A stretch of 64,000 nucleotides of DNA from a virus. Under the pieces are notes generated by a model. It saw only the letters and a program-made list of their open reading frames with translations, had not been told where the DNA came from and did no database searches. The position numbers were made by a program, and so were the translations under genes. Positions 15,401 to 50,200 of the stretch are shown here, in pieces. Positions within the stretch are counted from its first letter, which is position 1, and every line of letters starts with the position of its first letter. The stretch lies in the UHGV virus genome UHGV-1440165; one strand, given 5' to 3'.

Positions 15401-15634
15401 TTATTTCACATATTCAAGGGCTTTGGACAGGCCAAAGCGAAGACGTTCACGAGCAACCTTCAATTCCTCTCGGTCTTCCCCTTTGTTGTCGTGGTTCATG
15501 ATAATTTGGTAGTTAACCGCCGCACGAAGGGCACGGAGTTCCCCCACCCAGTAGGCTTTGTCGGCAGCACAGCCTTTCTTGGCAACTTTGGCGTGATAAG
15601 TCATTGAGGCATTGTAGACTTCGGAGTCTGTCAT
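15401..15634 (-). CDS. hypothetical protein
   Basis: Start MTDSEV with AGGAA RBS; promoter upstream. Confidence 0.45.
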   Translation of the reverse strand: MTDSEVYNASMTYHAKVAKKGCAADKAYWVGELRALRAAVNYQIIMNHDNKGEDREELKVARERLRFGLSKALEYVK

Positions 15635-15685
15635 GGTGTAGTTCCTGCTGTTCAATTTGTGGCGAATGCCAATGAATTACTGGGA

Positions 15686-15714
15686 AGTATAGGGGAGGGT
15701 GTTTCAAAAGTAAA
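15686..15714 (-). promoter_or_regulatory. sigma70-like early promoter TTTACT-N17-TATACT
   Basis: Hexamers with 17-nt spacer immediately after terminator hairpin. Confidence 0.5.
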
Positions 15715-15737
15715 GCCCCTCATTGAGGGGCTTTGGC
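15714..15737 (-). terminator. rho-independent terminator (AAAGCCCCTCATTGAGGGGCTTT)
   Basis: Stem-loop after glutaredoxin gene. Confidence 0.6.
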
Positions 15738-28443: not shown

Positions 28444-28671
28444 TCAGCCGCGCAATTGATACTGCATGATTCGTGAAAAGCTATCGCTTGTCAGGACGCA
28501 TCCTTCAACGATTTCCACAGAAAGATCCTGATCCACCCGATAACGCTTGCCATTCAAATCAAAGTAAACATAGAAATAACCGCGACGTTCCACCATATCC
28601 AGATTACTGATGCTTGAAACTTCTGGCAATTTGGTGATGATCGACTGAACGATATAAGACAACACATTCAT
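28444..28671 (-). CDS. hypothetical protein
   Basis: Start MNVLSY with AAGGAA RBS. Confidence 0.4.
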   Translation of the reverse strand: MNVLSYIVQSIITKLPEVSSISNLDMVERRGYFYVYFDLNGKRYRVDQDLSVEIVEGCVLTSDSFSRIMQYQLRG

Positions 28672-28693
28672 GATATAGTTCCTTCGGTTCAAA

Positions 28694-28927
28694 TTAAAGA
28701 GAGGCTTCAGATTTCACAACAGCTACCAGGGCGGCAATTTTCTTGCTGCTGGTAATCTTTTTACGGCTACCCTGGTTGCCCGCTTTCGGGGTGTTCAGCT
28801 GTACTACTGGGGTGTCAGTCTCGGCACCGTAAACGTGGTAAAAACCTTCACCTTCAACAGTAAATGTAGCGTGGGAAGCAAAGCGGCTAACTGCTGGTAC
28901 AAAGTAAAAACCGGTTACTGTAGTCAT
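28694..28927 (-). CDS. hypothetical protein (78 aa)
   Basis: Start MTTVTG with AAGGAA RBS; own promoter. Confidence 0.45.
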   Translation of the reverse strand: MTTVTGFYFVPAVSRFASHATFTVEGEGFYHVYGAETDTPVVQLNTPKAGNQGSRKKITSSKKIAALVAVVKSEASL

Positions 28928-28975
28928 GGTGTAGTTCCTTCGTTTCAAGTTGGTGTCGTACTGCTTATGTATTGA

Positions 28976-29004
28976 AGTATAGGGAAGGTTATTGAAGAAG
29001 TAAA
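28976..29004 (-). promoter_or_regulatory. sigma70-like early promoter TTTACT-N17-TATACT
   Basis: Directly follows terminator hairpin GGGGCTTTTGCCCC. Confidence 0.55.
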
Positions 29005-29022
29005 GGGGCAAAAGCCCCTTTT
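29005..29022 (-). terminator. rho-independent terminator (GGGGCTTTTGCCCC)
   Basis: Stem-loop after 29035..29673. Confidence 0.55.
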
Positions 29023-42804: not shown

Positions 42805-43092
42805 TCACACCTCGTCTTCTTCAGGTCCACCGTCAATCAGGATACGAGCGGTGTCGAAAGTTTCCCCGCCCGTGTTCAGCAGCTTGGTCAGATCGTCAAG
42901 ATATCGGACCGTGCCAAGATCAGATGACCGCGTTATAAATTCCAGCATACCATACAGGGCTGATTTGAATCGGCTGTTGTCGATATCGTTCTTGATTTCC
43001 ATCAGGCGCAAGATGTTCTCTGACTGAGTATGGCCAACACACGCCTTGTCTCTGATCATCTCCTTGATAGAACTTCTCTCTGTTGGTGTCAT
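42805..43092 (-). CDS. hypothetical protein (95 aa)
   Basis: ORF. Confidence 0.4.
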   Translation of the reverse strand: MTPTERSSIKEMIRDKACVGHTQSENILRLMEIKNDIDNSRFKSALYGMLEFITRSSDLGTVRYLDDLTKLLNTGGETFDTARILIDGGPEEDEV

Positions 43093-43466
43093 AACGAACC
43101 ACCCCCGACAGAGATCAAGAACTCTTCTTCAATGGTCGTGACCGGGCGGCGGTTGCGGGTTTCGATCATGAAGCCCCAGCCGCCGTCGGCGACGTTGCCA
43201 AAGGTCTTGACGCCAAAGGTCTTCTTCCCGTTGGAGCAGGCATAGAAGTCCAGGATGAACGGGCTACCCTGATTGTCGATCCCACGGTTTACGCCGTCCG
43301 CTACACAGCGCTCAATCATCTTCCCGTTCTTATACAGAACGAGGTCTTGGCCATACGCCTTGAAAGCATAAACGCCGTTGGTAGACACTCCGGTGATGAC
43401 AGGAGGAGCGGAAACAGCAGAGAAGGAAGCGCCCAGCAGGGCAACGGCGAGGATTAACTTTTTCAT
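43089..43466 (-). CDS. secreted protein
   Basis: Signal peptide MKKLILAVALLGASFSAVSA. Confidence 0.55.
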   Translation of the reverse strand: MKKLILAVALLGASFSAVSAPPVITGVSTNGVYAFKAYGQDLVLYKNGKMIERCVADGVNRGIDNQGSPFILDFYACSNGKKTFGVKTFGNVADGGWGFMIETRNRRPVTTIEEEFLISVGGGSL

Positions 43467-43518
43467 GATATAGTCTCTTGGTTTCAAATGGGCGGGGTAT
43501 GATTACCCCGCCGTGGGT

Positions 43519-44025
43519 TTATAGGGTAACAAGTGATACGGTAAAAACCATCGTCCCGTCAGTTGCCATTTTTCTTGAAACTGGTATGACGCGAGGCTGG
43601 CAGAATATCCATTCTTTCTCCATGGACGCCAAGTCCAGCATATCCATTTCTGATTCATCGCCTTTGTTCACAAATTTTTCTAGAGAACCATAGACATTAA
43701 GCCCCTCCGGGAGTCCGTTTCGATGTTTGTAACATATGCGGGCGACAGCTCTGGTTCCATACGATTTAGAAAATTGTTTGGCCACATGCTTCAGTTCACT
43801 GAAGCTAAGACAAGAATCCCATGTCTGAAACATGTCTCCTCGTTCAAACATCATCTCCAAACGCGCAACGTCCTCTTTAGGCAACCCGCGATAAAGTGTG
43901 GTCATCTGCGGTTCGCGTAATTCTCGCACCAGACCACGGATGGCAGGGGAAACAGTGCCAGGGCGCATGATGTGGGACTTATCATGGACGAGGTAAAATA
44001 AATCTTGAATTTGTTGATCGGTCAT
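43519..44025 (-). CDS. mono-ADP-ribosyltransferase, T4 ModA/ModB-like
   Basis: R motif TLYRGLPKE (T4 ModA PLWRGVPAE), S-x-S region DSCLSFSE, ExE-like SMEKEWIF, in ModA order and spacing. Confidence 0.55.
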   Translation of the reverse strand: MTDQQIQDLFYLVHDKSHIMRPGTVSPAIRGLVRELREPQMTTLYRGLPKEDVARLEMMFERGDMFQTWDSCLSFSELKHVAKQFSKSYGTRAVARICYKHRNGLPEGLNVYGSLEKFVNKGDESEMDMLDLASMEKEWIFCQPRVIPVSRKMATDGTMVFTVSLVTL

Positions 44026-44084
44026 GATGTATTTCCTTCATTTCAAATAGGCGGGGTAATCATACCCCACCCTAAGTTATAGAA

Positions 44085-44324
44085 TTAACTGATGTGCTTC
44101 AGAAGAGCGAAGAGGATCGCGGCCTTGGCTTTCACCTTTCCGACGACGCCTGTTTCGACATCGACTTCTTCGGCAACCCAATCTTTTCCCTTCTTGCTGA
44201 TGATAACATCGCGGCGCTGGGCATATACTTCTTTGGTCGCATACACACGGCGGAACCCTTTAGCGCGGAGCAAGCCCCAATTGCGATCAATCTCTACTGA
44301 AGTTTCGACCATTTTGTTCTTCAT
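44085..44324 (-). CDS. hypothetical protein (79 aa), basic
   Basis: ORF with own promoter. Confidence 0.45.
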   Translation of the reverse strand: MKNKMVETSVEIDRNWGLLRAKGFRRVYATKEVYAQRRDVIISKKGKDWVAEEVDVETGVVGKVKAKAAILFALLKHIS

Positions 44325-44375
44325 GATATAATCTTACCTTTCAACCTGGTGAACCCATCGTTCGCCAGTTATTGA

Positions 44376-44404
44376 ATAATAGGACATTCTTTAGAGGAAG
44401 TAAA
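44376..44404 (-). promoter_or_regulatory. sigma70-like early promoter TTTACT-N17-TATTAT
   Basis: Hexamers read directly; follows terminator hairpin. Confidence 0.6.
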
Positions 44405-44421
44405 CCCCTAAAAGTAAAAAT

Positions 44422-44439
44422 CCCCAACAAACGTTGGGG
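44422..44439 (-). terminator. rho-independent terminator (CCCCAACAAACGTTGGGG) followed by U-run on minus strand
   Basis: Perfect 7-bp stem. Confidence 0.6.
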
Positions 44440-44457
44440 ATTTAATAAAAGTTATGC

Positions 44458-44682
44458 CTATTTAATTTCTCGGCTTGAATTTTCCAGTTCTAATTTTCTT
44501 ATAGCGGAAATTCTACCTTCATCAGTTGCGGGAAACTCCCAAACAGCACGACGTCCGTTGTGAGTATCACAACTTGCCAGCCAGAAGAAATTAGAGGGAT
44601 CTTTAAACAAGACCAATTTAGGGTTAGCAATATTGTTCAGGCAAAATGGGGCGAGGTCAACAACGCGTGATACAGCAGACAT
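44458..44682 (-). CDS. hypothetical protein (74 aa)
   Basis: ORF flanked by duplicated terminator-promoter cassettes. Confidence 0.45.
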   Translation of the reverse strand: MSAVSRVVDLAPFCLNNIANPKLVLFKDPSNFFWLASCDTHNGRRAVWEFPATDEGRISAIRKLELENSSREIK

Positions 44683-44731
44683 AATATATACCTTCTTTCA
44701 ACGGACGGGAACGCCCCGCCCTATGAATTCA

Positions 44732-44760
44732 ATAATACGTATTTGCCTTATAGAAGTAAA
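44732..44760 (-). promoter_or_regulatory. sigma70-like early promoter TTTACT-N17-TATTAT
   Basis: Same architecture as 44376..44404. Confidence 0.6.
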
Positions 44761-44777
44761 CCCCTAAAAGTAAAAAT

Positions 44778-44795
44778 CCCCAACGTTTGTTGGGG
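44778..44795 (-). terminator. rho-independent terminator (CCCCAACGTTTGTTGGGG)
   Basis: Same stem as 44422 with reverse-complemented loop. Confidence 0.6.
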
Positions 44796-44802
44796 ACTTC
44801 TG

Positions 44803-45126
44803 TTATTTGCGCAGGGCAACCACGAATTCAGCGAGTTCACCCATGGTCGGGTCATCGCCTTTACTGCCCAGCCAGCCGTCGTCTATTTCGACCTGAAACT
44901 CTTCTTCTAGTTCCATTACGATTTCGATAGCATCCAGTTCATCGCCGCCGAGGTCTTTCTTGGTGCGGAGGCCAGCCAGTTTGTCCAGGGCGTCTTCGTT
45001 TTGAGATGCCACGTCGTCCAGCAGTTTGCGCTTGTCATCGTCGCGCCACAGATCCATATTCAGATTCTCTGTAGCGTACTGAGCCAGGTGTCGCATCACC
45101 TCAACATATGTCGGTTTACTGCTCAT
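44803..45126 (-). CDS. acyl carrier protein homologue lacking the phosphopantetheine-attachment serine
   Basis: DLGGDELDAIEIVMELEEEFQVEIDD versus E. coli ACP [26 protein letters not shown]; the DSL serine is Glu here. Confidence 0.65.
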   Translation of the reverse strand: MSSKPTYVEVMRHLAQYATENLNMDLWRDDDKRKLLDDVASQNEDALDKLAGLRTKKDLGGDELDAIEIVMELEEEFQVEIDDGWLGSKGDDPTMGELAEFVVALRK

Positions 45127-45168
45127 GTCACTTCTCCCAAAGAAGGGCGGGTTGCCCCGCCCGTTGGA

Positions 45169-47397
45169 TTAGATTTTGATCTCTTTCTCTGCCAGTTCGG
45201 CAGTGACCTTGTACTTCACGCCATCCACTTCAACTTCCATGGTTGACTCTTCCAGGTCGAGGTCGGTGAACCAGCCATGGCCAGCAACGATACCATACAC
45301 CACTTTAGACAGCGTCTTGTTCAGGGCGCGGACTTCAGTGATGGCCGCCTTGGCAGCAGCGTCGATCCAGTTTTCGATCAGCTGTTTCTGTACGGCTTCA
45401 GGCACAGCAGTAATAGCCGGGGACTTCACGAATGCGTCGTATTCTTTCAGTGCATTGGCGATGAACATATCACCCGCATTGAGAGCCTTTTTATCAGCAA
45501 TCTTCTTCTGTACCGCAGCGATGGACGGCAGAGAAGACGCCCCGGCGATCTTAACGTTCAGCTCACGGCTCATGTAGACGTCCGTGGAGTCCTTCAGCTC
45601 GGTCTTCGGTGAGAAGCCATAATCGCGGATACCAACACTAGACAGGTATTCTGCGGCCGCAGCGCCGTACTGAATAGCCAGACCTTTGGCATTACCCTTA
45701 CCAACCAGGGCGTCGCGATAGAACTTCAGTACCTTCTGCTTGCCTTTCAGGGCTTCCAGGCGAACGTTGTCGGCAAAGAACTGTGCAGCACTGATGTTCT
45801 TGACCATCGCACGGTTGACCAGCGGTACGCTTTCCAGGTTCAGAATGAACACTTCCGGACCAACGAACACGTGGACGCCCATTTCGATCAACTTCTGCAC
45901 AACTTCGATATCAGCCTTGAACGGCAGGGTCTTCACATTGATGATGCCGTCTTTGACGATGGTGTAGTTGCGCCACTGGAATGTGTCCAATTCTTCGGGT
46001 AGACCGAACTTCTTCTGAGCGAATTCGGGCACCGCCACAGTTCCATGCTGGATTGTACGCACACTGATGTTCGGGCGCTCAGAGTTATAGACCAGGTCGC
46101 TGATTGAGATCACGCCCAGATCGTTAGCAGGTTCAAACGACGGTGTCCACTCTTCGTGCTCAGCCAGCTTGAGAGCGAGGGCTTTACGCTCTTCTTTGGA
46201 CTTGGCGTTCGCGATTTCTTCCGCCAGCTTGTCTTCGGTATCATCGGCTTTCTGCACAGTACCGCGACCAATGCTCTTGTAGGAGAACATCGGGTGCTTG
46301 GTGGCAACAGACACGCCAGCTTCGGCCAGGTACGTCAGCACATCAACGACAGTGGTCGCATCTTCAGCCGGAACCATATTGTAGTCGATACCGTCCACGC
46401 CGCGCAGCTGATCATCAACGATGGCCTGGGTCAGATCAACTTTGATGTTGGAGTAGTCCTGCTTGGTGAAGCAGTTGCTGTACTGTTTGATGAAGCGGAC
46501 GTCGCCCGTTTTCTTCAGCGCAGCCCACACCAGGTCGGCGTCCATGATGTGTACGCCGTAGAACGCCAGCACGTATGCTGCCTGGATGTCCGTCAGCGCA
46601 TCAAGCTGGTCGATCATGTTAGGGTTGACGACCCACAGCTTCGTGACGCTCTCAGGGATGCTCACGTGGCCGATAGGATGGTCTTCATCCGGCTGTACCG
46701 CCAGCACGGTTGCTACGCCGTTTTCAACGTAGATGGCGTGAGTGTACACCACAGGAACGTCAACACGAACCTTCGGCACCGAGGACTTCAACACGTTTTC
46801 CAGCTCAGTCTGATATTCAGTCTGTCCTTCGGCGAACACGTGAGTCGCGCCGGAACGCTCGGACATCTGGGCCAGGAGTTCGCGGTTACAGTACCAGCCG
46901 TATTCGATAAAGGTGATGTTATCGAAAACAAATGGCAAGGTTTCGGCGACGGCCAGGATTTCATTGGAGCGCCAGCAGTTGTCATAACCATCGGTCATGA
47001 ACGCCAGGTTGTTGACGTAGCCGGGTTTCTTCAGGCTACGCGCAGTATCTACCGCGAGACCCAGGGGTTCGACGAAGCCAGTGCAACCGGATGGTTGCAG
47101 GAAGCGGTCGATCAGTTTGTTCAGCTCGCTCAGGTCAGACGCAGCACTGACCTGGCGGCCAGCGAACACAGTACCAAAGTCGCCACGGGATGAGAAGTAC
47201 AGGAGGCTCACTGTGTCTTCCGGTTTCACCAGGGAAGGCAGGTTCTCCTTCAGGTGCTTACGGACTTCAGGGAGCGCCCGGTACATGGAACCGGAAATGT
47301 CCACAACGATTACATGGTTGGACGGGGCAGCAGTCGCAACCGCATTCTTAAACTCCAGGGATTCAATCATCGTTATTGCCTTCTTCAGGGTTGTCAT
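45169..47397 (-). CDS. large von Willebrand factor A (vWA) domain protein
   Basis: N-terminal MIDAS motif VVDISGSM; ~740 aa; start at MTTLKK with GGAAGGTGAGG RBS. Confidence 0.55.
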   Translation of the reverse strand: MTTLKKAITMIESLEFKNAVATAAPSNHVIVVDISGSMYRALPEVRKHLKENLPSLVKPEDTVSLLYFSSRGDFGTVFAGRQVSAASDLSELNKLIDRFLQPSGCTGFVEPLGLAVDTARSLKKPGYVNNLAFMTDGYDNCWRSNEILAVAETLPFVFDNITFIEYGWYCNRELLAQMSERSGATHVFAEGQTEYQTELENVLKSSVPKVRVDVPVVYTHAIYVENGVATVLAVQPDEDHPIGHVSIPESVTKLWVVNPNMIDQLDALTDIQAAYVLAFYGVHIMDADLVWAALKKTGDVRFIKQYSNCFTKQDYSNIKVDLTQAIVDDQLRGVDGIDYNMVPAEDATTVVDVLTYLAEAGVSVATKHPMFSYKSIGRGTVQKADDTEDKLAEEIANAKSKEERKALALKLAEHEEWTPSFEPANDLGVISISDLVYNSERPNISVRTIQHGTVAVPEFAQKKFGLPEELDTFQWRNYTIVKDGIINVKTLPFKADIEVVQKLIEMGVHVFVGPEVFILNLESVPLVNRAMVKNISAAQFFADNVRLEALKGKQKVLKFYRDALVGKGNAKGLAIQYGAAAAEYLSSVGIRDYGFSPKTELKDSTDVYMSRELNVKIAGASSLPSIAAVQKKIADKKALNAGDMFIANALKEYDAFVKSPAITAVPEAVQKQLIENWIDAAAKAAITEVRALNKTLSKVVYGIVAGHGWFTDLDLEESTMEVEVDGVKYKVTAELAEKEIKI

Positions 47398-47550
47398 CGG
47401 CCTCACCTTCCGGATTGACCAGCATGTGTTCAACGAATTCGCGATTCAGCTCAATCTGGCTCATCAGCGCATCCGTCGGAGTAAAGCGGCGGTCGAGGTT
47501 ATCGACACCCGCACGTTTAAATGGTTTGGACATTCCTCGACCTCAAAACA

Positions 47551-47568
47551 GGGGAGTTTCCTCCCCTT
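47551..47568 (-). terminator. rho-independent terminator (AGGGGAGTTTCCTCCCCT)
   Basis: Same hairpin core as 22001..22020. Confidence 0.6.
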
Positions 47569-47574
47569 CAGTTA

Positions 47575-49239
47575 TTAGATTTGTGAGGCCAGTTCTGCCA
47601 CCAGAGGAGCAGCACGAACACGCGCATCTTCCAGAGTCTGAGTGTTGAAGAACTTGCCATCACGGTACACCAGTTGGTGTTGGTTGTCGGCGTCTTGCAC
47701 CTGATCAAAGGTGATGCCGTCAACCAACACTAGTTTACCCTGAGAGTCTTTAATGACTTTAAGGAAACCACGCGCAGACTTTTTAGTCCCGCCTTTGTCG
47801 GTCTTCGGCTCTTTGAAGATCTCGCGGAATTCACCGTTCACCTTACCAGCCGTCGCTTTCACTGCCGTTCCAGTACTGTCACGGGTGTTCATCTGGTAGG
47901 TGTAGGAACCAATACCGAAGACCACGTTAATGGAAGCGAAGTTCCGGCCAGCCAGACGACCAAAGATCTGGTCTTCACGTGCCAATGTGATAGAGTCACC
48001 GTAGATCAGACCGATGTGATCGTCCAACAGGAAGTGGCCAGTCTCAGTTTGAGTACCGCCAAAGATCTCCCACAGGCGCTGAATAGAGCCGACTGCTTCA
48101 GAACGGCTGATGATATTACTGTCGTCTGCCATCAGAGAGTTGATCGTACCTTCGCCTGTGATCAGGTGATAGGTGTTCGTCTCTTCGATGTGGATGACTT
48201 CGGTGCTGCTGGACACGCCGCTGATGTTCAGCATAGCGCGGTCTTTGAACCCCTCGATGCGGTAGCCGCCGACGATGTGAACTGGGTCGCCAGAGTCAGG
48301 GCGGATCACGACTTTGCCGTTGCGTGCCATGATAATGTCTTTCAGGCGAGGGAGATAGTCGTCGATGACCTGCCAATAGTCCCACGCATCCGACACAATG
48401 CTGACGATGCCATCAGGATACACGTCCTGCACCAGGCGACGGAAGGTTTCGAATTCTCCATTCTTCGTACCCATGCACATCACGGCGTGTTCGGTGGCTG
48501 CAACGGAGCCAGCAACGACATAGTCTTCATCGATATCCGCGCCGTAATACTCTTCAACGAAGTCCAGGGCAGGGTTGGTGTCAGTGCCTTTGAAGAACAC
48601 CAGATGGCCAGAACCGGAAGACGCCGCGTCATGCCATCCGCTCATACCACGGAAGGAGAAGTCGTGGCCTTGGTAATCGATGAACCAATGGTCCGGTGAC
48701 ACGCCTGTGGCGATAGCGGCTTTCACCATCAGTGCCTTGTAATGCAGGGCGATGGTGGCGTTCGTCATGGGCTTCCAGATCTCAGAGCTGAACACAGTCT
48801 CCAGATAGTTGGTCAGCCAGTAGAACTCCGGCAAGGTGTTGAACATCACATACACCGGAACGCCATACGGGCACATGGTGCCTTCGGGTAGAGCACGGAC
48901 TTCGATAGGCAGATAACCGAGGTCATGCAGGGCTTCGATATGCTCTGTGCCAACACGACCTGGACCCAGTACTTTGTTCATGCGACGGGCATACTTCTTC
49001 AACACCTTGGCCTTCGGGCGCTGGAAGAACGCTTCGTCAAACAGTTCGTGGAACCAGGTCATGAAACCCTGGATGCCCCAGACCACCACGCCGTTCTTCG
49101 GCAGGTGAGAGTTGAATAATTTGTTGGAACGCGGAGTCCCGTTGGAGAACACCAGCTCACTACCTTCAGGGAACTGATAGATGTGCCCTGATTTGTAGAA
49201 GTCGATTGCATGAATTGGGTCTAAGTGGCGCATGCTCAT
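47575..49239 (-). CDS. nicotinamide phosphoribosyltransferase-family enzyme (NadV/NAMPT-like; candidate NARP1 Namat)
   Basis: Full-length NAMPT-like sequence (554 aa) read from the translation; no single motif checked. Confidence 0.75.
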   Translation of the reverse strand: MSMRHLDPIHAIDFYKSGHIYQFPEGSELVFSNGTPRSNKLFNSHLPKNGVVVWGIQGFMTWFHELFDEAFFQRPKAKVLKKYARRMNKVLGPGRVGTEHIEALHDLGYLPIEVRALPEGTMCPYGVPVYVMFNTLPEFYWLTNYLETVFSSEIWKPMTNATIALHYKALMVKAAIATGVSPDHWFIDYQGHDFSFRGMSGWHDAASSGSGHLVFFKGTDTNPALDFVEEYYGADIDEDYVVAGSVAATEHAVMCMGTKNGEFETFRRLVQDVYPDGIVSIVSDAWDYWQVIDDYLPRLKDIIMARNGKVVIRPDSGDPVHIVGGYRIEGFKDRAMLNISGVSSSTEVIHIEETNTYHLITGEGTINSLMADDSNIISRSEAVGSIQRLWEIFGGTQTETGHFLLDDHIGLIYGDSITLAREDQIFGRLAGRNFASINVVFGIGSYTYQMNTRDSTGTAVKATAGKVNGEFREIFKEPKTDKGGTKKSARGFLKVIKDSQGKLVLVDGITFDQVQDADNQHQLVYRDGKFFNTQTLEDARVRAAPLVAELASQI

Positions 49240-50090
49240 TTTACACGTCCTGTATTTTCAGTTTTGAAAGGAAGACCGTCGGCGGTGATGTTCTCCCACC
49301 AGACAGTGTCGGCATACACAGCATCGTAGATCCCGTCGAAAACAGAGAGACCTTTGCTGAAGATGCCATGGGTAACGAAGAGCGTCATGTGCTTAGGCTT
49401 GTGCTTCTGAAGCTCTTTACCCAGCTCAACAAACGTGCGCCCACCGTCGCAGATATCATCAACCACAACCAGATAGCGGTCTTTGATCAGTTCAGGGTTT
49501 GTAATACTCACCCCAATGATTTCACCAGTCTTGGTGTCACGGTTCTTGTGTCCGTAGACAACAGGAACGCCATCCAATGACAGGCTGAGGGTTTCGGTCT
49601 TCTTCGCCGCGCCGCCGTCAGGGGCTACCAGCACAGCATTGTTCCCACGGATGAACCAGCCCAGATACTGGCGCACGATGTGATCTTGTGGGACCACATG
49701 GACGTTGTTGATCAGGGAAGACACAACATGGCTGTGAGGGTCTTTGATCGCCACGCGGTCAAAGTTCATGTTGTTGATGAACTCAGCCGCCCACTTCACG
49801 GACAGAGGCTCGCCGAAGTCGCAATGGCGGTCCTGGCGAGCATACGGGAAGTAAGGGATATACGCATGGAAGGTAGTCAGACGGTCCACGTTACCCAGGC
49901 CGCGCACGGCGTTTACCAGAAGCGCCAGCTCAATGAAGTCGGCTGATGATTTGATGTGAGCATCAATCACCACGTTCTGGACGTGACCGACAGGGATGCC
50001 AGCCTTTTGGATCTTGATATGTTCCTCACCACCTGGGAAGGTGAAGTGCTTGTAGAACACATCTTGGTCGTTCAATTTCAAACGAAACAT
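49236..50090 (-). CDS. ribose-phosphate pyrophosphokinase-family enzyme (Prs-like; candidate NARP1 Adps)
   Basis: PRPP-binding motif VVVDDICDGGRT; 284 aa; ATGA-coupled to NAMPT-like gene. Confidence 0.75.
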   Translation of the reverse strand: MFRLKLNDQDVFYKHFTFPGGEEHIKIQKAGIPVGHVQNVVIDAHIKSSADFIELALLVNAVRGLGNVDRLTTFHAYIPYFPYARQDRHCDFGEPLSVKWAAEFINNMNFDRVAIKDPHSHVVSSLINNVHVVPQDHIVRQYLGWFIRGNNAVLVAPDGGAAKKTETLSLSLDGVPVVYGHKNRDTKTGEIIGVSITNPELIKDRYLVVVDDICDGGRTFVELGKELQKHKPKHMTLFVTHGIFSKGLSVFDGIYDAVYADTVWWENITADGLPFKTENTGRVK

Positions 50091-50200
50091 AATGTAGCCT
50101 CATGGTGTATTGTACAGCCGTATTATACTGTGATGCACAAATTGAAACGCCCAGCAAATATACCGGGCGTTATTGTTATTGAAGGAGTTTGCTGATTCAG

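What the first reader, a model, noticed from the sequence alone, without database searches (positions are those of the whole stretch)
44345..44810. Duplicated terminator-promoter cassette flanking a small gene, with a reverse-complemented hairpin loop
Two ~50-bp elements share GAAGTAAACCCCTAAAAGTAAAAATCCCCAAC-loop-GTTGGGGA. On the minus strand each reads as terminator hairpin, U-run, then promoter TTTACT-N17-TATTAT. The stems are identical but the 4-nt loops are reverse complements (AAAC at 44422..44439, GTTT at 44778..44795), as expected if one copy arose by inversion of the palindromic hairpin or by recombination between copies. The cassettes bracket the 74-aa ORF 44458..44682, suggesting a cassette-bounded moron-like insertion.
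Basis: seen in the sequence. Interest (0 to 1): 0.45.

Follow-up and report, generated by a model that had tools for sequence, protein, structure and literature searches.

The report
Duplicated terminator-promoter cassette bounding a gene
In this Ackermannviridae phage, a small gene of unknown function sits between two copies of a 47-bp terminator-plus-early-promoter element that acts as a recombination joint for gaining or losing the gene, a pattern already described as PeSL cassettes in T4-type phages; the reverse-complemented hairpin loop is a recurrent, apparently neutral flip.

Summary
Two 47-nt copies lie at 44397-44443 and 44753-44799. They are identical except for a reverse-complemented 4-nt loop and one other base, with 0 matches expected by chance.

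The window is an Agtrevirus-like Ackermannviridae phage, 95.5% identical to Salmonella phage pSal-SNUABM-02.

On the minus strand each copy reads as a hairpin, a U-run, then TTTACT-N17-TATTAT. The homologous site in phage LIMEstone1 is annotated as a putative early promoter.

About 32 of 251 related records carry the 74-aa gene, always between the acyl carrier protein gene and the 79-aa gene. The relatives without the gene that I read carry exactly one chimeric cassette. This is the topology published for PeSL cassettes in T4-type phages.

The gene is under purifying selection and is restricted to Ackermannviridae. Its low GC3 and its near-identity to Kuttervirus alleles suggest lateral arrival within the family.

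The loop flip says nothing about how the duplication arose. The closest relative has the same loop in both copies. All four orientation combinations occur, single-copy genomes are polymorphic, and a 5-nt loop variant exists in both orientations.

A second hairpin family flanking the neighbouring 168-aa gene behaves the same way.

Verdict: a new member of a known kind. No transcription data exist.

The parts
44803..45126 (-). Upstream gene: acyl carrier protein (107 aa). Its stop codon lies 2-3 nt before the hairpin of cassette 2.
   Evidence: ORF list. Pfam PP-binding E=7.9e-6 and phrog_4154 E=3.9e-57. Annotated as ACP in relatives.
44753..44799 (-). Cassette copy 2: the 47-nt repeat unit (ACP side), upstream of the 74-aa gene.
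   Evidence: Direct repeat family D1/D2. Exactly two matches, 0 expected.
44773..44800 (-). Terminator-like hairpin of copy 2. The RNA is GAAGUCCCCAAC-AAAC-GUUGGGGAUUUU, followed by a U-run (UUUUUACUUUU). The perfect DNA palindrome is 44777-44796. The loop at 44785-44788 reads GTTT on the plus strand.
   Evidence: Sequence and RNA fold, -24.6 kcal/mol, z=-5.8. The terminator scan lists this hairpin only on the plus strand. Termination itself is inferred.
44732..44760 (-). Putative sigma70-type early promoter of the 74-aa gene: -35 TTTACT (44760..44755), 17-nt spacer, -10 TATTAT (44737..44732).
   Evidence: Promoter scan, 9 of 12 matches. GTTTAC-N18-TATNAT has 8 matches in the window against 0.5 expected. 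Activity is inferred.
44703..44721 (-). GC-rich hairpin in the predicted 5' leader of the 74-aa gene (GGGCGGG-GCGTT-CCCGTCC), followed by GTTGAAAGAAGG (SD) and ATG.
   Evidence: Read from the sequence. Part of it repeats at 45154-45170 (D2). Its role is unknown.
44458..44682 (-). The 74-aa gene (phrog_22629, function unknown), the cargo between the two cassettes.
   Evidence: ORF. phrog_22629 E=2.9e-48. dN/dS 0.06-0.17. Only 3 protein clusters in 5.8 billion. Present in 32 of 251 related records. AlphaFold2 pLDDT 80, beta4-alpha fold, no significant fold match apart from the Magnus orthologue.
44397..44443 (-). Cassette copy 1: the 47-nt repeat unit, downstream of the 74-aa gene and upstream of the 79-aa gene.
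44418..44443 (-). Terminator-like hairpin of copy 1. It has a perfect 11-bp stem (AAATCCCCAAC / GTTGGGGATTT). The loop at 44429-44432 reads AAAC on the plus strand, flipped relative to pSal-SNUABM-02. The U-run follows on the minus strand.
   Evidence: Flip relative to pSal-SNUABM-02 shown.
44376..44404 (-). Putative early promoter of the 79-aa gene: TTTACT-N17-TATTAT. The homologous site is annotated as a putative early promoter in phage LIMEstone1.
   Evidence: LIMEstone1 record features. The in-silico basis of that annotation is described in PMC3296691.
44085..44324 (-). Downstream gene: 79 aa (phrog_804, function unknown). It lies directly next to the ACP gene in relatives that lack the 74-aa gene.
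44050..44071 (-). Second hairpin family (type B), copy upstream of the 168-aa gene: GGTGGGGTA-TGAT-TACCCCGCC, followed by TATTTGAAA, SD and ATG.
   Evidence: (I2).
43519..44025 (-). The 168-aa gene (weak match to RNA polymerase ADP-ribosylase). It is another present/absent gene, bounded by type-B hairpins.
   Evidence: phrog_832 E=1.1e-14. Absent in pertopsoe, CAU_YEP3 and LIMEstone1.
43491..43512 (-). Type-B hairpin copy downstream of the 168-aa gene: GGCGGGGTA-ATCA-TACCCCGCC. Its loop is reverse-complemented relative to the other copy and to pSal-SNUABM-02, AV101 and MK-13.
28976..29021 (-). Another composite element with the same architecture: hairpin AAAGGGGC-UUUU-GCCCCUUU whose 3' arm runs into TTTACT-N17-TATACT. 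It lies at a breakpoint of the window/pSal-SNUABM-02 alignment.
15686..15734 (-). Another composite element: a 10-bp hairpin whose 3' arm runs into TTTACT-N17-TATACT. It lies at a breakpoint of the window/pSal-SNUABM-02 alignment.

Best explanation
**Proposal.** The two 47-nt elements are copies of a composite regulatory cassette of the PeSL (promoter-early stem-loop) type.

**Transcription (inferred).** Read on the minus strand, a GC-rich hairpin with a U-run ends the upstream transcript. An AT-rich stretch and a sigma70-type promoter (TTTACT-N17-TATTAT) then restart early transcription. This makes the 74-aa gene a self-contained promoter-gene-terminator unit between the ACP gene and the 79-aa gene.

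**Gene gain and loss (topology shown, process inferred).** The cassettes are identical direct repeats. Homologous recombination between them deletes the gene and leaves one chimeric cassette. Recombination with a relative, or with an excised circle, that carries the unit inserts it.

**Polarity (inferred from composition and identity).** In the window's Agtrevirus-like lineage the allele most likely arrived laterally from a Kuttervirus-like donor.

**Loop orientation (flips shown, mechanism inferred).** The loop difference is a separate phenomenon. The perfectly palindromic stem allows the loop to be inverted repeatedly. The most likely route is replication template switching across the hairpin. 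The alternative is short-patch conversion between palindromic copies paired in the inverted register. The flip does not change hairpin stability and is probably neutral.
For: **Architecture**
- Hairpin, U-run and promoter are found by scan and fold.
- The homologous site is annotated as a putative early promoter in LIMEstone1.

**Indel topology**
- AV101, LIMEstone1, MK-13, SKML-39 and A221 lack the gene.
- Each has one cassette, made of the left flank of copy 1, the shared 47 nt and the right flank of copy 2.
- 32 of 251 related records carry the gene, always at this locus.
- The same topology is published for RB49 ORF192 versus phi1 (PMC2839356).

**Exchange at the cassettes**
- SJ3 against the window: vWA 71% and ACP 65%, but the 74-aa gene 97.8%, the 79-aa gene 98.3% and the 168-aa gene 96.6%.
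- Promoter-spacer types are swapped between the two copies in SJ3, LHE287, KE31 and Det7.

**Real gene**
- dN/dS is 0.06-0.17.

**Lateral arrival**
- GC3 is 0.35 against 0.59-0.68 in the flanking genes, which is Kuttervirus-like.

**Recurrent flips**
- Orientation states, copy 1 / copy 2: AAAC/GTTT, GTTT/GTTT, GTTT/AAAC and AAAC/AAAC.
- Single-copy genomes carry GTTT, AAAC, AAACC or GGTTT.
- Both orientations are common among about 140 records.
- Across 52-57 kb pairwise alignments, the only hairpin-flanked inversions are at this hairpin and at the type-B hairpin.
- Loop inversion by template switching is an established mutation class (PMC8794818).

**Same pattern next door**
- The 168-aa gene shows the same architecture.
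Against: - No transcription start or end mapping exists for any Ackermannviridae phage in the searched literature. Promoter and terminator activity is therefore predicted only.
- The promoter matches the consensus at 9 of 12 positions.
- The exact cassette is not dispersed. It has two copies at one locus, and never more than two per genome. PeSLs number about 50 per genome.
- Only four hairpin-plus-TTTACT promoter elements were found in the 64 kb window.
- The polarity of the indel (gain or loss) is not proven. The gene is old in the family, so repeated loss is also plausible.
- The data cannot separate intra-hairpin template switching from inverted-register conversion.
- Some gene-less records could in principle be assembly collapses of the 47-nt repeat.
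Confidence: 0.75

Rival explanations
1. A classical moron. The 74-aa gene with its promoter and terminator was captured recently from outside the phage family and inserted by illegitimate recombination. The repeat is a by-product of that insertion.
For: The unit is a self-contained promoter-gene-terminator module. The genes on either side are contiguous in relatives. GC is 41.8% and GC3 0.35, against 50.6% for the window and 0.59-0.68 for the flanking genes.
Against: Homologues exist only in Ackermannviridae: 3 clusters in 5.8 billion proteins, and 32 phage records, all Ackermannviridae. Orthologues at the same locus in Taipeivirus and Kuttervirus are 70-86% identical, with saturated dS and dN/dS around 0.1, so the gene is old in the family. 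The low GC3 matches Kuttervirus composition. The junctions fall exactly within a shared 47-nt repeat, which points to homologous rather than illegitimate recombination.
Confidence: 0.1
2. The loop flips do not arise within a single hairpin. They come from short-patch gene conversion or strand invasion between two palindromic copies paired in the inverted register, either within a genome or between co-infecting genomes. The flips would then be a by-product of unusually frequent recombination initiated at these hairpins.
For: The two copies are also 26-nt inverted repeats of each other, 96% complementary (I1). In three 52-57 kb comparisons the only loop inversions are at the two hairpin families that bound indel-prone genes. 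In the one comparison checked hairpin by hairpin (against pSal-SNUABM-02), 10 other perfect-stem hairpins are unchanged. Mosaic breakpoints and spacer swaps show active conversion at these sites. The phages encode UvsY, gp46/47-like (SbcCD-like) and RuvC-like functions.
Against: Single-copy genomes are polymorphic as well, so a second copy in the same genome is not needed. The sample of comparable hairpins is small: 2 of 4 duplicated against 0 of 10 single, which by my own hand calculation (not a tool result) gives a Fisher exact p of about 0.07. No inverted 74-aa segment was seen in any locus read. Crossover between the inverted arms would produce one.
Confidence: 0.25
3. The repeats are the ends or target-site duplication of a small mobile element, such as a site-specific or homing element. 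Alternatively, the presence/absence pattern and the loop differences are assembly artefacts.
For: The gene is bounded by direct repeats. Several GenBank records start within 14-47 nt of the cassette, which suggests that assemblers break there.
Against: The 356-nt unit encodes no recombinase, nuclease or other mobility gene. The cassette never occurs at a second locus or more than twice in about 140 genomes. The repeat is itself the conserved regulatory region of gene-less genomes. An 8-11 bp inverted repeat is too short to mislead assemblers that use k of 21 or more. Both states recur in genomes from many laboratories and in IMG/VR and metagenome contigs.
Confidence: 0.03

Closest known systems
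PeSL (promoter-early stem-loop) cassettes of T4-type phages (Arbiol et al. 2010, PMC2839356; Comeau et al. 2014, PMC4122927)
   Same: Both are composite stem-loop terminator plus sigma70-like early promoter elements with an AT-rich stretch. Both lie in intergenic DNA directly upstream of small genes of unknown function, in a variable region. One phage has two cassettes flanking the gene and its relative has a single chimeric cassette. Mosaic breakpoints fall at the cassettes.
   Different: The host family is Ackermannviridae, not Straboviridae. The exact cassette is confined to one locus, with one or two copies, rather than about 50 dispersed copies. Only four elements of this architecture were found in 64 kb. 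Promoter and terminator activity and mini-circles have not been tested here. Recurrent loop inversion is not mentioned in the sections of the PeSL papers that I read.
Morons of lambdoid phages (a gene with its own promoter and terminator, inserted between genes that are adjacent in relatives; from my own knowledge of Juhala/Hendrix 2000)
   Same: Both are self-contained promoter-gene-terminator units lying between genes that are contiguous in relatives. Both differ in base composition from the flanking genes.
   Different: This is a virulent phage, so there is no expression from a prophage. The gene is family-restricted and old within the family. The junctions lie in a homologous repeat rather than at illegitimate joints.
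Hairpin loop inversions: template-switch mutations (Monttinen and Loytynoja 2022, PMC8794818) and small inversions in plastid genomes (e.g. PMC6824564, PMC12371153)
   Same: A short loop is exactly reverse-complemented between perfect inverted-repeat arms. Loop length is kept and the event recurs (is homoplasious) among related genomes.
   Different: Here it occurs in phage terminator hairpins with stems of only 8-11 bp. In this window it is concentrated at the hairpins that bound indel-prone genes. No rate or mechanism was measured.

Membership tests
PeSL cassette | Contains a sigma70-like early promoter (-35 and -10 boxes) | tested here: met
   TTTACT-N17-TATTAT at 44760..44732 and 44404..44376, 9 of 12 consensus matches. 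The motif is enriched, 8 matches against 0.5 expected. It is annotated as a putative early promoter in LIMEstone1. This is sequence evidence only.
PeSL cassette | Contains a stable stem-loop next to or overlapping the promoter that can terminate upstream transcription | tested here: met
   Stems of 11 and 12 bp, followed by UUUUUACUUUU. Free energies are -20.3 and -24.6 kcal/mol, z = -3.5 and -5.8. The consensus scan calls the minus-strand terminator for copy 1 only. Termination was not measured.
PeSL cassette | [quoted passage not shown] | tested here: met
   ATTTTTACTTTTA lies between the hairpin and the -35 box.
PeSL cassette | Lies directly upstream of genes of unknown function in a hyperplastic (variable) region | tested here: met
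   The 74-aa and 79-aa genes have no known function. The region is mosaic and rich in indels.
PeSL cassette | Indels between related phages: two flanking cassettes in one phage, a single chimeric cassette in the other | tested here: met
   Window, pSal-SNUABM-02, pertopsoe and others carry two cassettes. AV101, LIMEstone1, MK-13, SKML-39 and A221 carry one.
PeSL cassette | Many dispersed copies per genome (about 50) that share the motif | tested here: inconclusive
   The exact cassette has only 2 copies at one locus. The looser architecture (hairpin running into TTTACT-N17-TATNNT) occurs 4 times in 64 kb.
PeSL cassette | Demonstrated promoter and terminator activity and excised mini-circles | not testable with these tools
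   This needs reporter assays, end mapping and outward-facing PCR.
PeSL cassette | Host phage is a T4-type myovirus (the group in which the family was defined) | tested here: not met
   The window is Ackermannviridae, Agtrevirus-like. LIMEstone1 is described as T4-related in organisation but belongs to a separate family.
Moron | Gene with its own promoter and terminator, lying between genes that are adjacent in relatives | tested here: met
Moron | Foreign origin, meaning homologues in unrelated genomes | tested here: not met
   Only 3 clusters were found, all Ackermannviridae-like. The 32 phage records are all Ackermannviridae. The fold search gave only the Magnus orthologue. The composition does differ from the flanking genes, but it matches Kuttervirus.
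Hairpin loop inversion (template-switch class) | Loop exactly reverse-complemented, length kept, flanked by perfect inverted arms | tested here: met
   AAAC/GTTT with arms of 8-11 bp, AAACC/GGTTT, and TGAT/ATCA with 9-bp arms.
Hairpin loop inversion (template-switch class) | Arises during replication by strand switching | not testable with these tools
   This needs mutation-accumulation experiments or deep sequencing of lysates.

The most novel reading that the evidence does not exclude
The perfectly palindromic hairpins of these cassettes are more than passive homology patches. They would be preferred initiation sites for recombination in Ackermannviridae. One route would be cruciform or hairpin cleavage by the phage's SbcCD-like (gp46/47) or RuvC-like nucleases, followed by recombination-dependent replication. 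A single process would then produce three things: the loop flips, the conversion of promoter spacers between copies, and the gain, loss or exchange of the flanked genes across genera. On this reading the loop flip is a visible scar of each initiation event.
Probability: 0.15. Interest if true: 0.55.

Novelty: new member of a known kind. Interest (0 to 1): 0.3.

Why it matters
- It extends the PeSL model of modular gene shuffling from T4-type phages to Ackermannviridae. This is a family widely used for biocontrol and diagnostics.
- The family's transcription signals are essentially unstudied. A 2024 review of the family does not mention promoters or terminators.
- It identifies natural, tolerated insertion and deletion joints that could be used to engineer these phages.
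- It gives a clean natural example of recurrent loop inversion in short terminator hairpins. This matters for phylogenetics, because a flip counts as four substitutions. It also matters for judging whether such hairpins are recombination hotspots.
- It does not reveal a new kind of system.

Tried and rejected
- **Rfam.** An E-value-mode scan of 43000-45500 found no RNA family.
- **Metagenome and IMG/VR pattern scans.** They gave few Ackermannviridae contigs. Most metagenome hits to the 20-mer were unrelated sequences. They were used only to sample loop states.
- **Function of the 74-aa protein.** There is no Pfam hit. It matches only a PHROG of unknown function. The big protein database holds 3 clusters. 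The AlphaFold2 model is confident (pLDDT 80), but Foldseek found nothing significant in PDB or BFVD apart from the Magnus orthologue. Weak PUR-alpha/Whirly-like beta4-alpha matches at E of about 0.4 are not evidence.
- **Literature.** No transcriptome or transcript-end mapping of any Ackermannviridae phage was found. No paper combines PeSL with Ackermannviridae. No paper on loop inversion in bacterial terminators was found with the terms used.
- **Megablast tally of loop orientation.** The counts are only approximate, because some alignments extend through the flipped loop at 90.9% identity.
- **Rejected explanations.** These were a mobile element with target-site duplication, an assembly artefact, four independent point mutations, and a functional invertible switch. 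The last is rejected because both orientations fold equally well.
Full report
**1. The observation**

The sequence is as described.
- Copy 1 lies at 44397-44443 and copy 2 at 44753-44799, 356 nt apart.
- They share GAAGTAAACCCCTAAAAGTAAAAATCCCCAAC-loop-GTTGGGGA.
- They differ only in the loop (AAAC against GTTT, exact reverse complements) and in one base after the stem.
- The hairpin pattern and the 24-nt left part each occur exactly twice in the 64 kb window. Dinucleotide-preserving shuffles give none, and a window-wide repeat search finds no third copy.
- All genes here are on the minus strand. The order is vWA-domain protein (45169-47433), acyl carrier protein (44803-45126), copy 2, the 74-aa ORF (44458-44682), copy 1, a 79-aa ORF (44085-44324) and a 168-aa ORF (43519-44025).

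**2. Anatomy on the coding strand**

After the stop codon of the upstream gene, each copy reads as follows.
- A hairpin comes first. Copy 1 has 11 perfect base pairs. Copy 2 has 12 at the RNA level, including two G-U pairs.
- A U-run follows: UUUUUACUUUU.
- Then comes AGGGG and a promoter-like site, TTTACT-N17-TATTAT.
- A leader of about 50 nt follows, with a second GC-rich hairpin, GTTGAAAG, a Shine-Dalgarno sequence and ATG.

The consensus scan calls both promoters. It calls the minus-strand terminator for copy 1, and lists the copy 2 hairpin only on the plus strand. The RNA folds are well below shuffled controls: -20.3 and -24.6 kcal/mol, z = -3.5 and -5.8. No Rfam family matches.

**3. What the window is**

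- The region is 95.5% identical to Salmonella phage pSal-SNUABM-02 (Ackermannviridae, Agtrevirus).
- It matches 251 phage records from Salmonella, Escherichia, Klebsiella, Dickeya and Shigella phages.
- In Dickeya phage LIMEstone1 the homologous intergenic site is annotated as a putative early promoter, with -35 GTTTAC and -10 TATTAT.
- The LIMEstone paper predicted only five early promoters in that genome, all in silico (PMC3296691).
- I found no transcript mapping for any member of the family. A 2024 family review never mentions promoters or terminators.
- Terminator and promoter function are therefore inferred.

**4. Presence and absence of the gene**

- The 74-aa gene is found in 32 of the 251 records. 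In every locus I read it lies between the ACP gene and the 79-aa gene.
- AV101, LIMEstone1, MK-13, SKML-39 and A221 lack it. Each has exactly one cassette.
- The left flank of that single cassette is copy 1's promoter spacer. The right flank is copy 2's ACP-side sequence.
- That is the product expected from recombination within the shared 47 nt. Read in reverse, it is the target for inserting a unit made of promoter spacer, gene and cassette.
- No genome has more than two copies or a copy at another locus.

**5. Evidence that the cassettes are recombination joints**

Segment identities to the window change abruptly at intergenic cassettes.

| Phage | vWA | ACP | 74-aa gene | 79-aa gene | 168-aa gene |
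|---|---|---|---|---|---|
| SJ3 (Kuttervirus) | 71% | 65% | 97.8% | 98.3% | 96.6% |
| Det7 | 72% | 92% | 86% | 83% | 95% |

The two copies also exchange sequence with each other.
- In SJ3, LHE287 and KE31, copy 1 carries the promoter spacer typical of copy 2.
- In Det7, copy 2 carries the spacer typical of copy 1.

**6. The gene itself**

- It is a real coding gene. Against the Det7 and Magnus orthologues and the LHE287 allele, dN/dS is 0.06-0.17. Synonymous sites are saturated between genera.
- It is restricted to the family. Only three clusters exist among 5.8 billion proteins, and the only match is a PHROG of unknown function.
- An AlphaFold2 model (pLDDT 80) gives four strands and a C-terminal helix. 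Nothing significant matches it in PDB or BFVD apart from the Magnus orthologue.
- In Klebsiella phage Magnus (Taipeivirus) the gene directly abuts the 79-aa gene, with no cassette between them.
- The window's allele has GC3 of 0.35, against 0.59-0.68 for its neighbours. That composition matches Kuttervirus alleles.
- The allele is 97-98% identical to alleles in several Kuttervirus genomes, while most Aglimvirinae lack the gene.

My reading is that the gene is old in the family. In the window's lineage it was probably acquired laterally from a Kuttervirus-like relative through the cassettes. Loss by repeat recombination has probably occurred elsewhere. This polarity is an inference.

**7. The loop**

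The reverse-complement relation is real, but it is not a trace of the duplication.

| Genome | Copy 1 / copy 2 |
|---|---|
| pSal-SNUABM-02, ZQ1, KE31 | GTTT / GTTT |
| window, LHE287 | AAAC / GTTT |
| pertopsoe, CAU_YEP3 | GTTT / AAAC |
| SJ3 | GTTT / AAACC |
| Det7 | AAAC / AAAC |

- Single-cassette genomes carry GTTT, AAAC, AAACC or GGTTT. The 5-nt variant therefore also exists in both orientations.
- Across about 140 records, both orientations are common. Roughly 79 records align full-length to the GTTT query and 53 to the AAAC query. These counts are approximate.
- No intermediate loop sequences were seen.
- I aligned the window to pSal-SNUABM-02 (57 kb, 95.5%) and to MK-13 (53 kb, 89.5%), and pSal-SNUABM-02 to MK-13.
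- The only inversions flanked by inverted repeats are at this hairpin and at a second hairpin family.
- Ten other perfect-stem hairpins in the window are unchanged in pSal-SNUABM-02.
- Loop inversion at perfect hairpins is a known outcome of replication template switching (PMC8794818). It is also well known as small inversions in plastid genomes.
- Both orientations fold equally well, so the flip is probably neutral.

**8. A second example next door**

- The 168-aa gene (43519-44025) gives a weak match to RNA polymerase ADP-ribosylase.
- It is flanked by two copies of another hairpin, GG(C/T)GGGGTA-loop-TACCCCGCC, followed by ATTTGAAA, at 44050-44071 and 43491-43512.
- pertopsoe and CAU_YEP3 lack this gene and have one such hairpin with chimeric flanks.
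- In the window the downstream copy's loop (ATCA) is the reverse complement of the other copy's (TGAT) and of both copies in pSal-SNUABM-02 and AV101.

Elements with the same hairpin-into-TTTACT-N17-TATACT architecture lie at 15686-15734 and 28976-29021, both at breaks in the window/pSal-SNUABM-02 alignment. The NAMPT/RPPK-size module at 47575-50090, absent from pSal-SNUABM-02, is also bounded by hairpins.

**9. Comparison with what is known**

- The closest described system is the PeSL cassette of T4-type phages. A PeSL is a stem-loop terminator plus a sigma70-like early promoter with an AT-rich stretch. It lies upstream of ORFans in hyperplastic regions.
- RB49 ORF192 is flanked by two PeSLs, where phage phi1 has one (PMC2839356; PMC4122927).
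- Architecture, location and indel topology are all met here.
- Dispersal of many copies is not clearly met. Activity and mini-circles are untested. The host family is different.
- I found no paper that links PeSLs to Ackermannviridae.
- The unit also fits the structural definition of a moron, but not a foreign origin.

**10. Verdict**

The cassette-bounded indel is right. The explanation of the loop is not.
- The finding is a new member of a known kind, of moderate-to-low interest.
- The most novel reading left open is that these palindromic hairpins are active recombination initiation sites and that the flips are their scars. I give this about 15%.

Noticed in passing
window 43491-43512 and 44050-44071, flanking 43519-44025: A second hairpin family (GGCGGGGTA-loop-TACCCCGCC followed by ATTTGAAA) bounds the 168-aa ADP-ribosylase-like gene. 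Relatives that lack the gene have one chimeric hairpin. The window's downstream copy has a reverse-complemented loop (ATCA against TGAT).
   Followed up: yes
window 15686-15734 and 28976-29021 (minus strand): Two more hairpins have a 3' arm that runs directly into TTTACT-N17-TATACT. Both lie at breaks in the alignment with pSal-SNUABM-02, where short segments are replaced.
   Followed up: partly
window 47533-50122: A module of about 2.6 kb with 554-aa and 284-aa ORFs is absent from pSal-SNUABM-02. The sizes and position match the nicotinamide phosphoribosyl transferase and ribose-phosphate pyrophosphokinase genes annotated in MK-13. It is bounded by a GC-rich hairpin plus a TATAAT promoter-like site (about 50120-50175) and by the hairpin GGGGAG-GAAA-CTCCCC plus a T-run (about 47548-47567).
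   Followed up: partly
window 15630-15659, 28667-28696, 28923-28952, 44021-44050: A 30-nt translation-initiation leader motif recurs upstream of several small early genes. On the minus strand it reads roughly (C/T)A(A/T)TTGAAAC/T..AAGGAA(C/A)TA.A.CATGA.
   Followed up: no
GenBank records SenASZ3, SeTs-2, SenALZ1 and 'selz': Several Kuttervirus records begin 14-47 nt from this cassette or from the 74-aa gene. This suggests that assemblies break at, or are opened at, the 47-nt repeat. Some gene-less records might be repeat collapses.
   Followed up: no
OR844942.1 'Enterococcus phage Efm 3-10', positions 405-435: A record labelled as an Enterococcus phage (111 kb) carries the enterobacterial Ackermannviridae cassette near its start. 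The record is probably mislabelled or mixed.
   Followed up: no
window 44458-44682 (74-aa protein): The AlphaFold2 model has a beta-beta-beta-beta-alpha topology. Its only, non-significant, PDB neighbours include PUR-alpha and Whirly single-stranded nucleic-acid-binding folds (E about 0.4). The strictly conserved motif is WLASCDTHNGRRAVW.
   Followed up: partly
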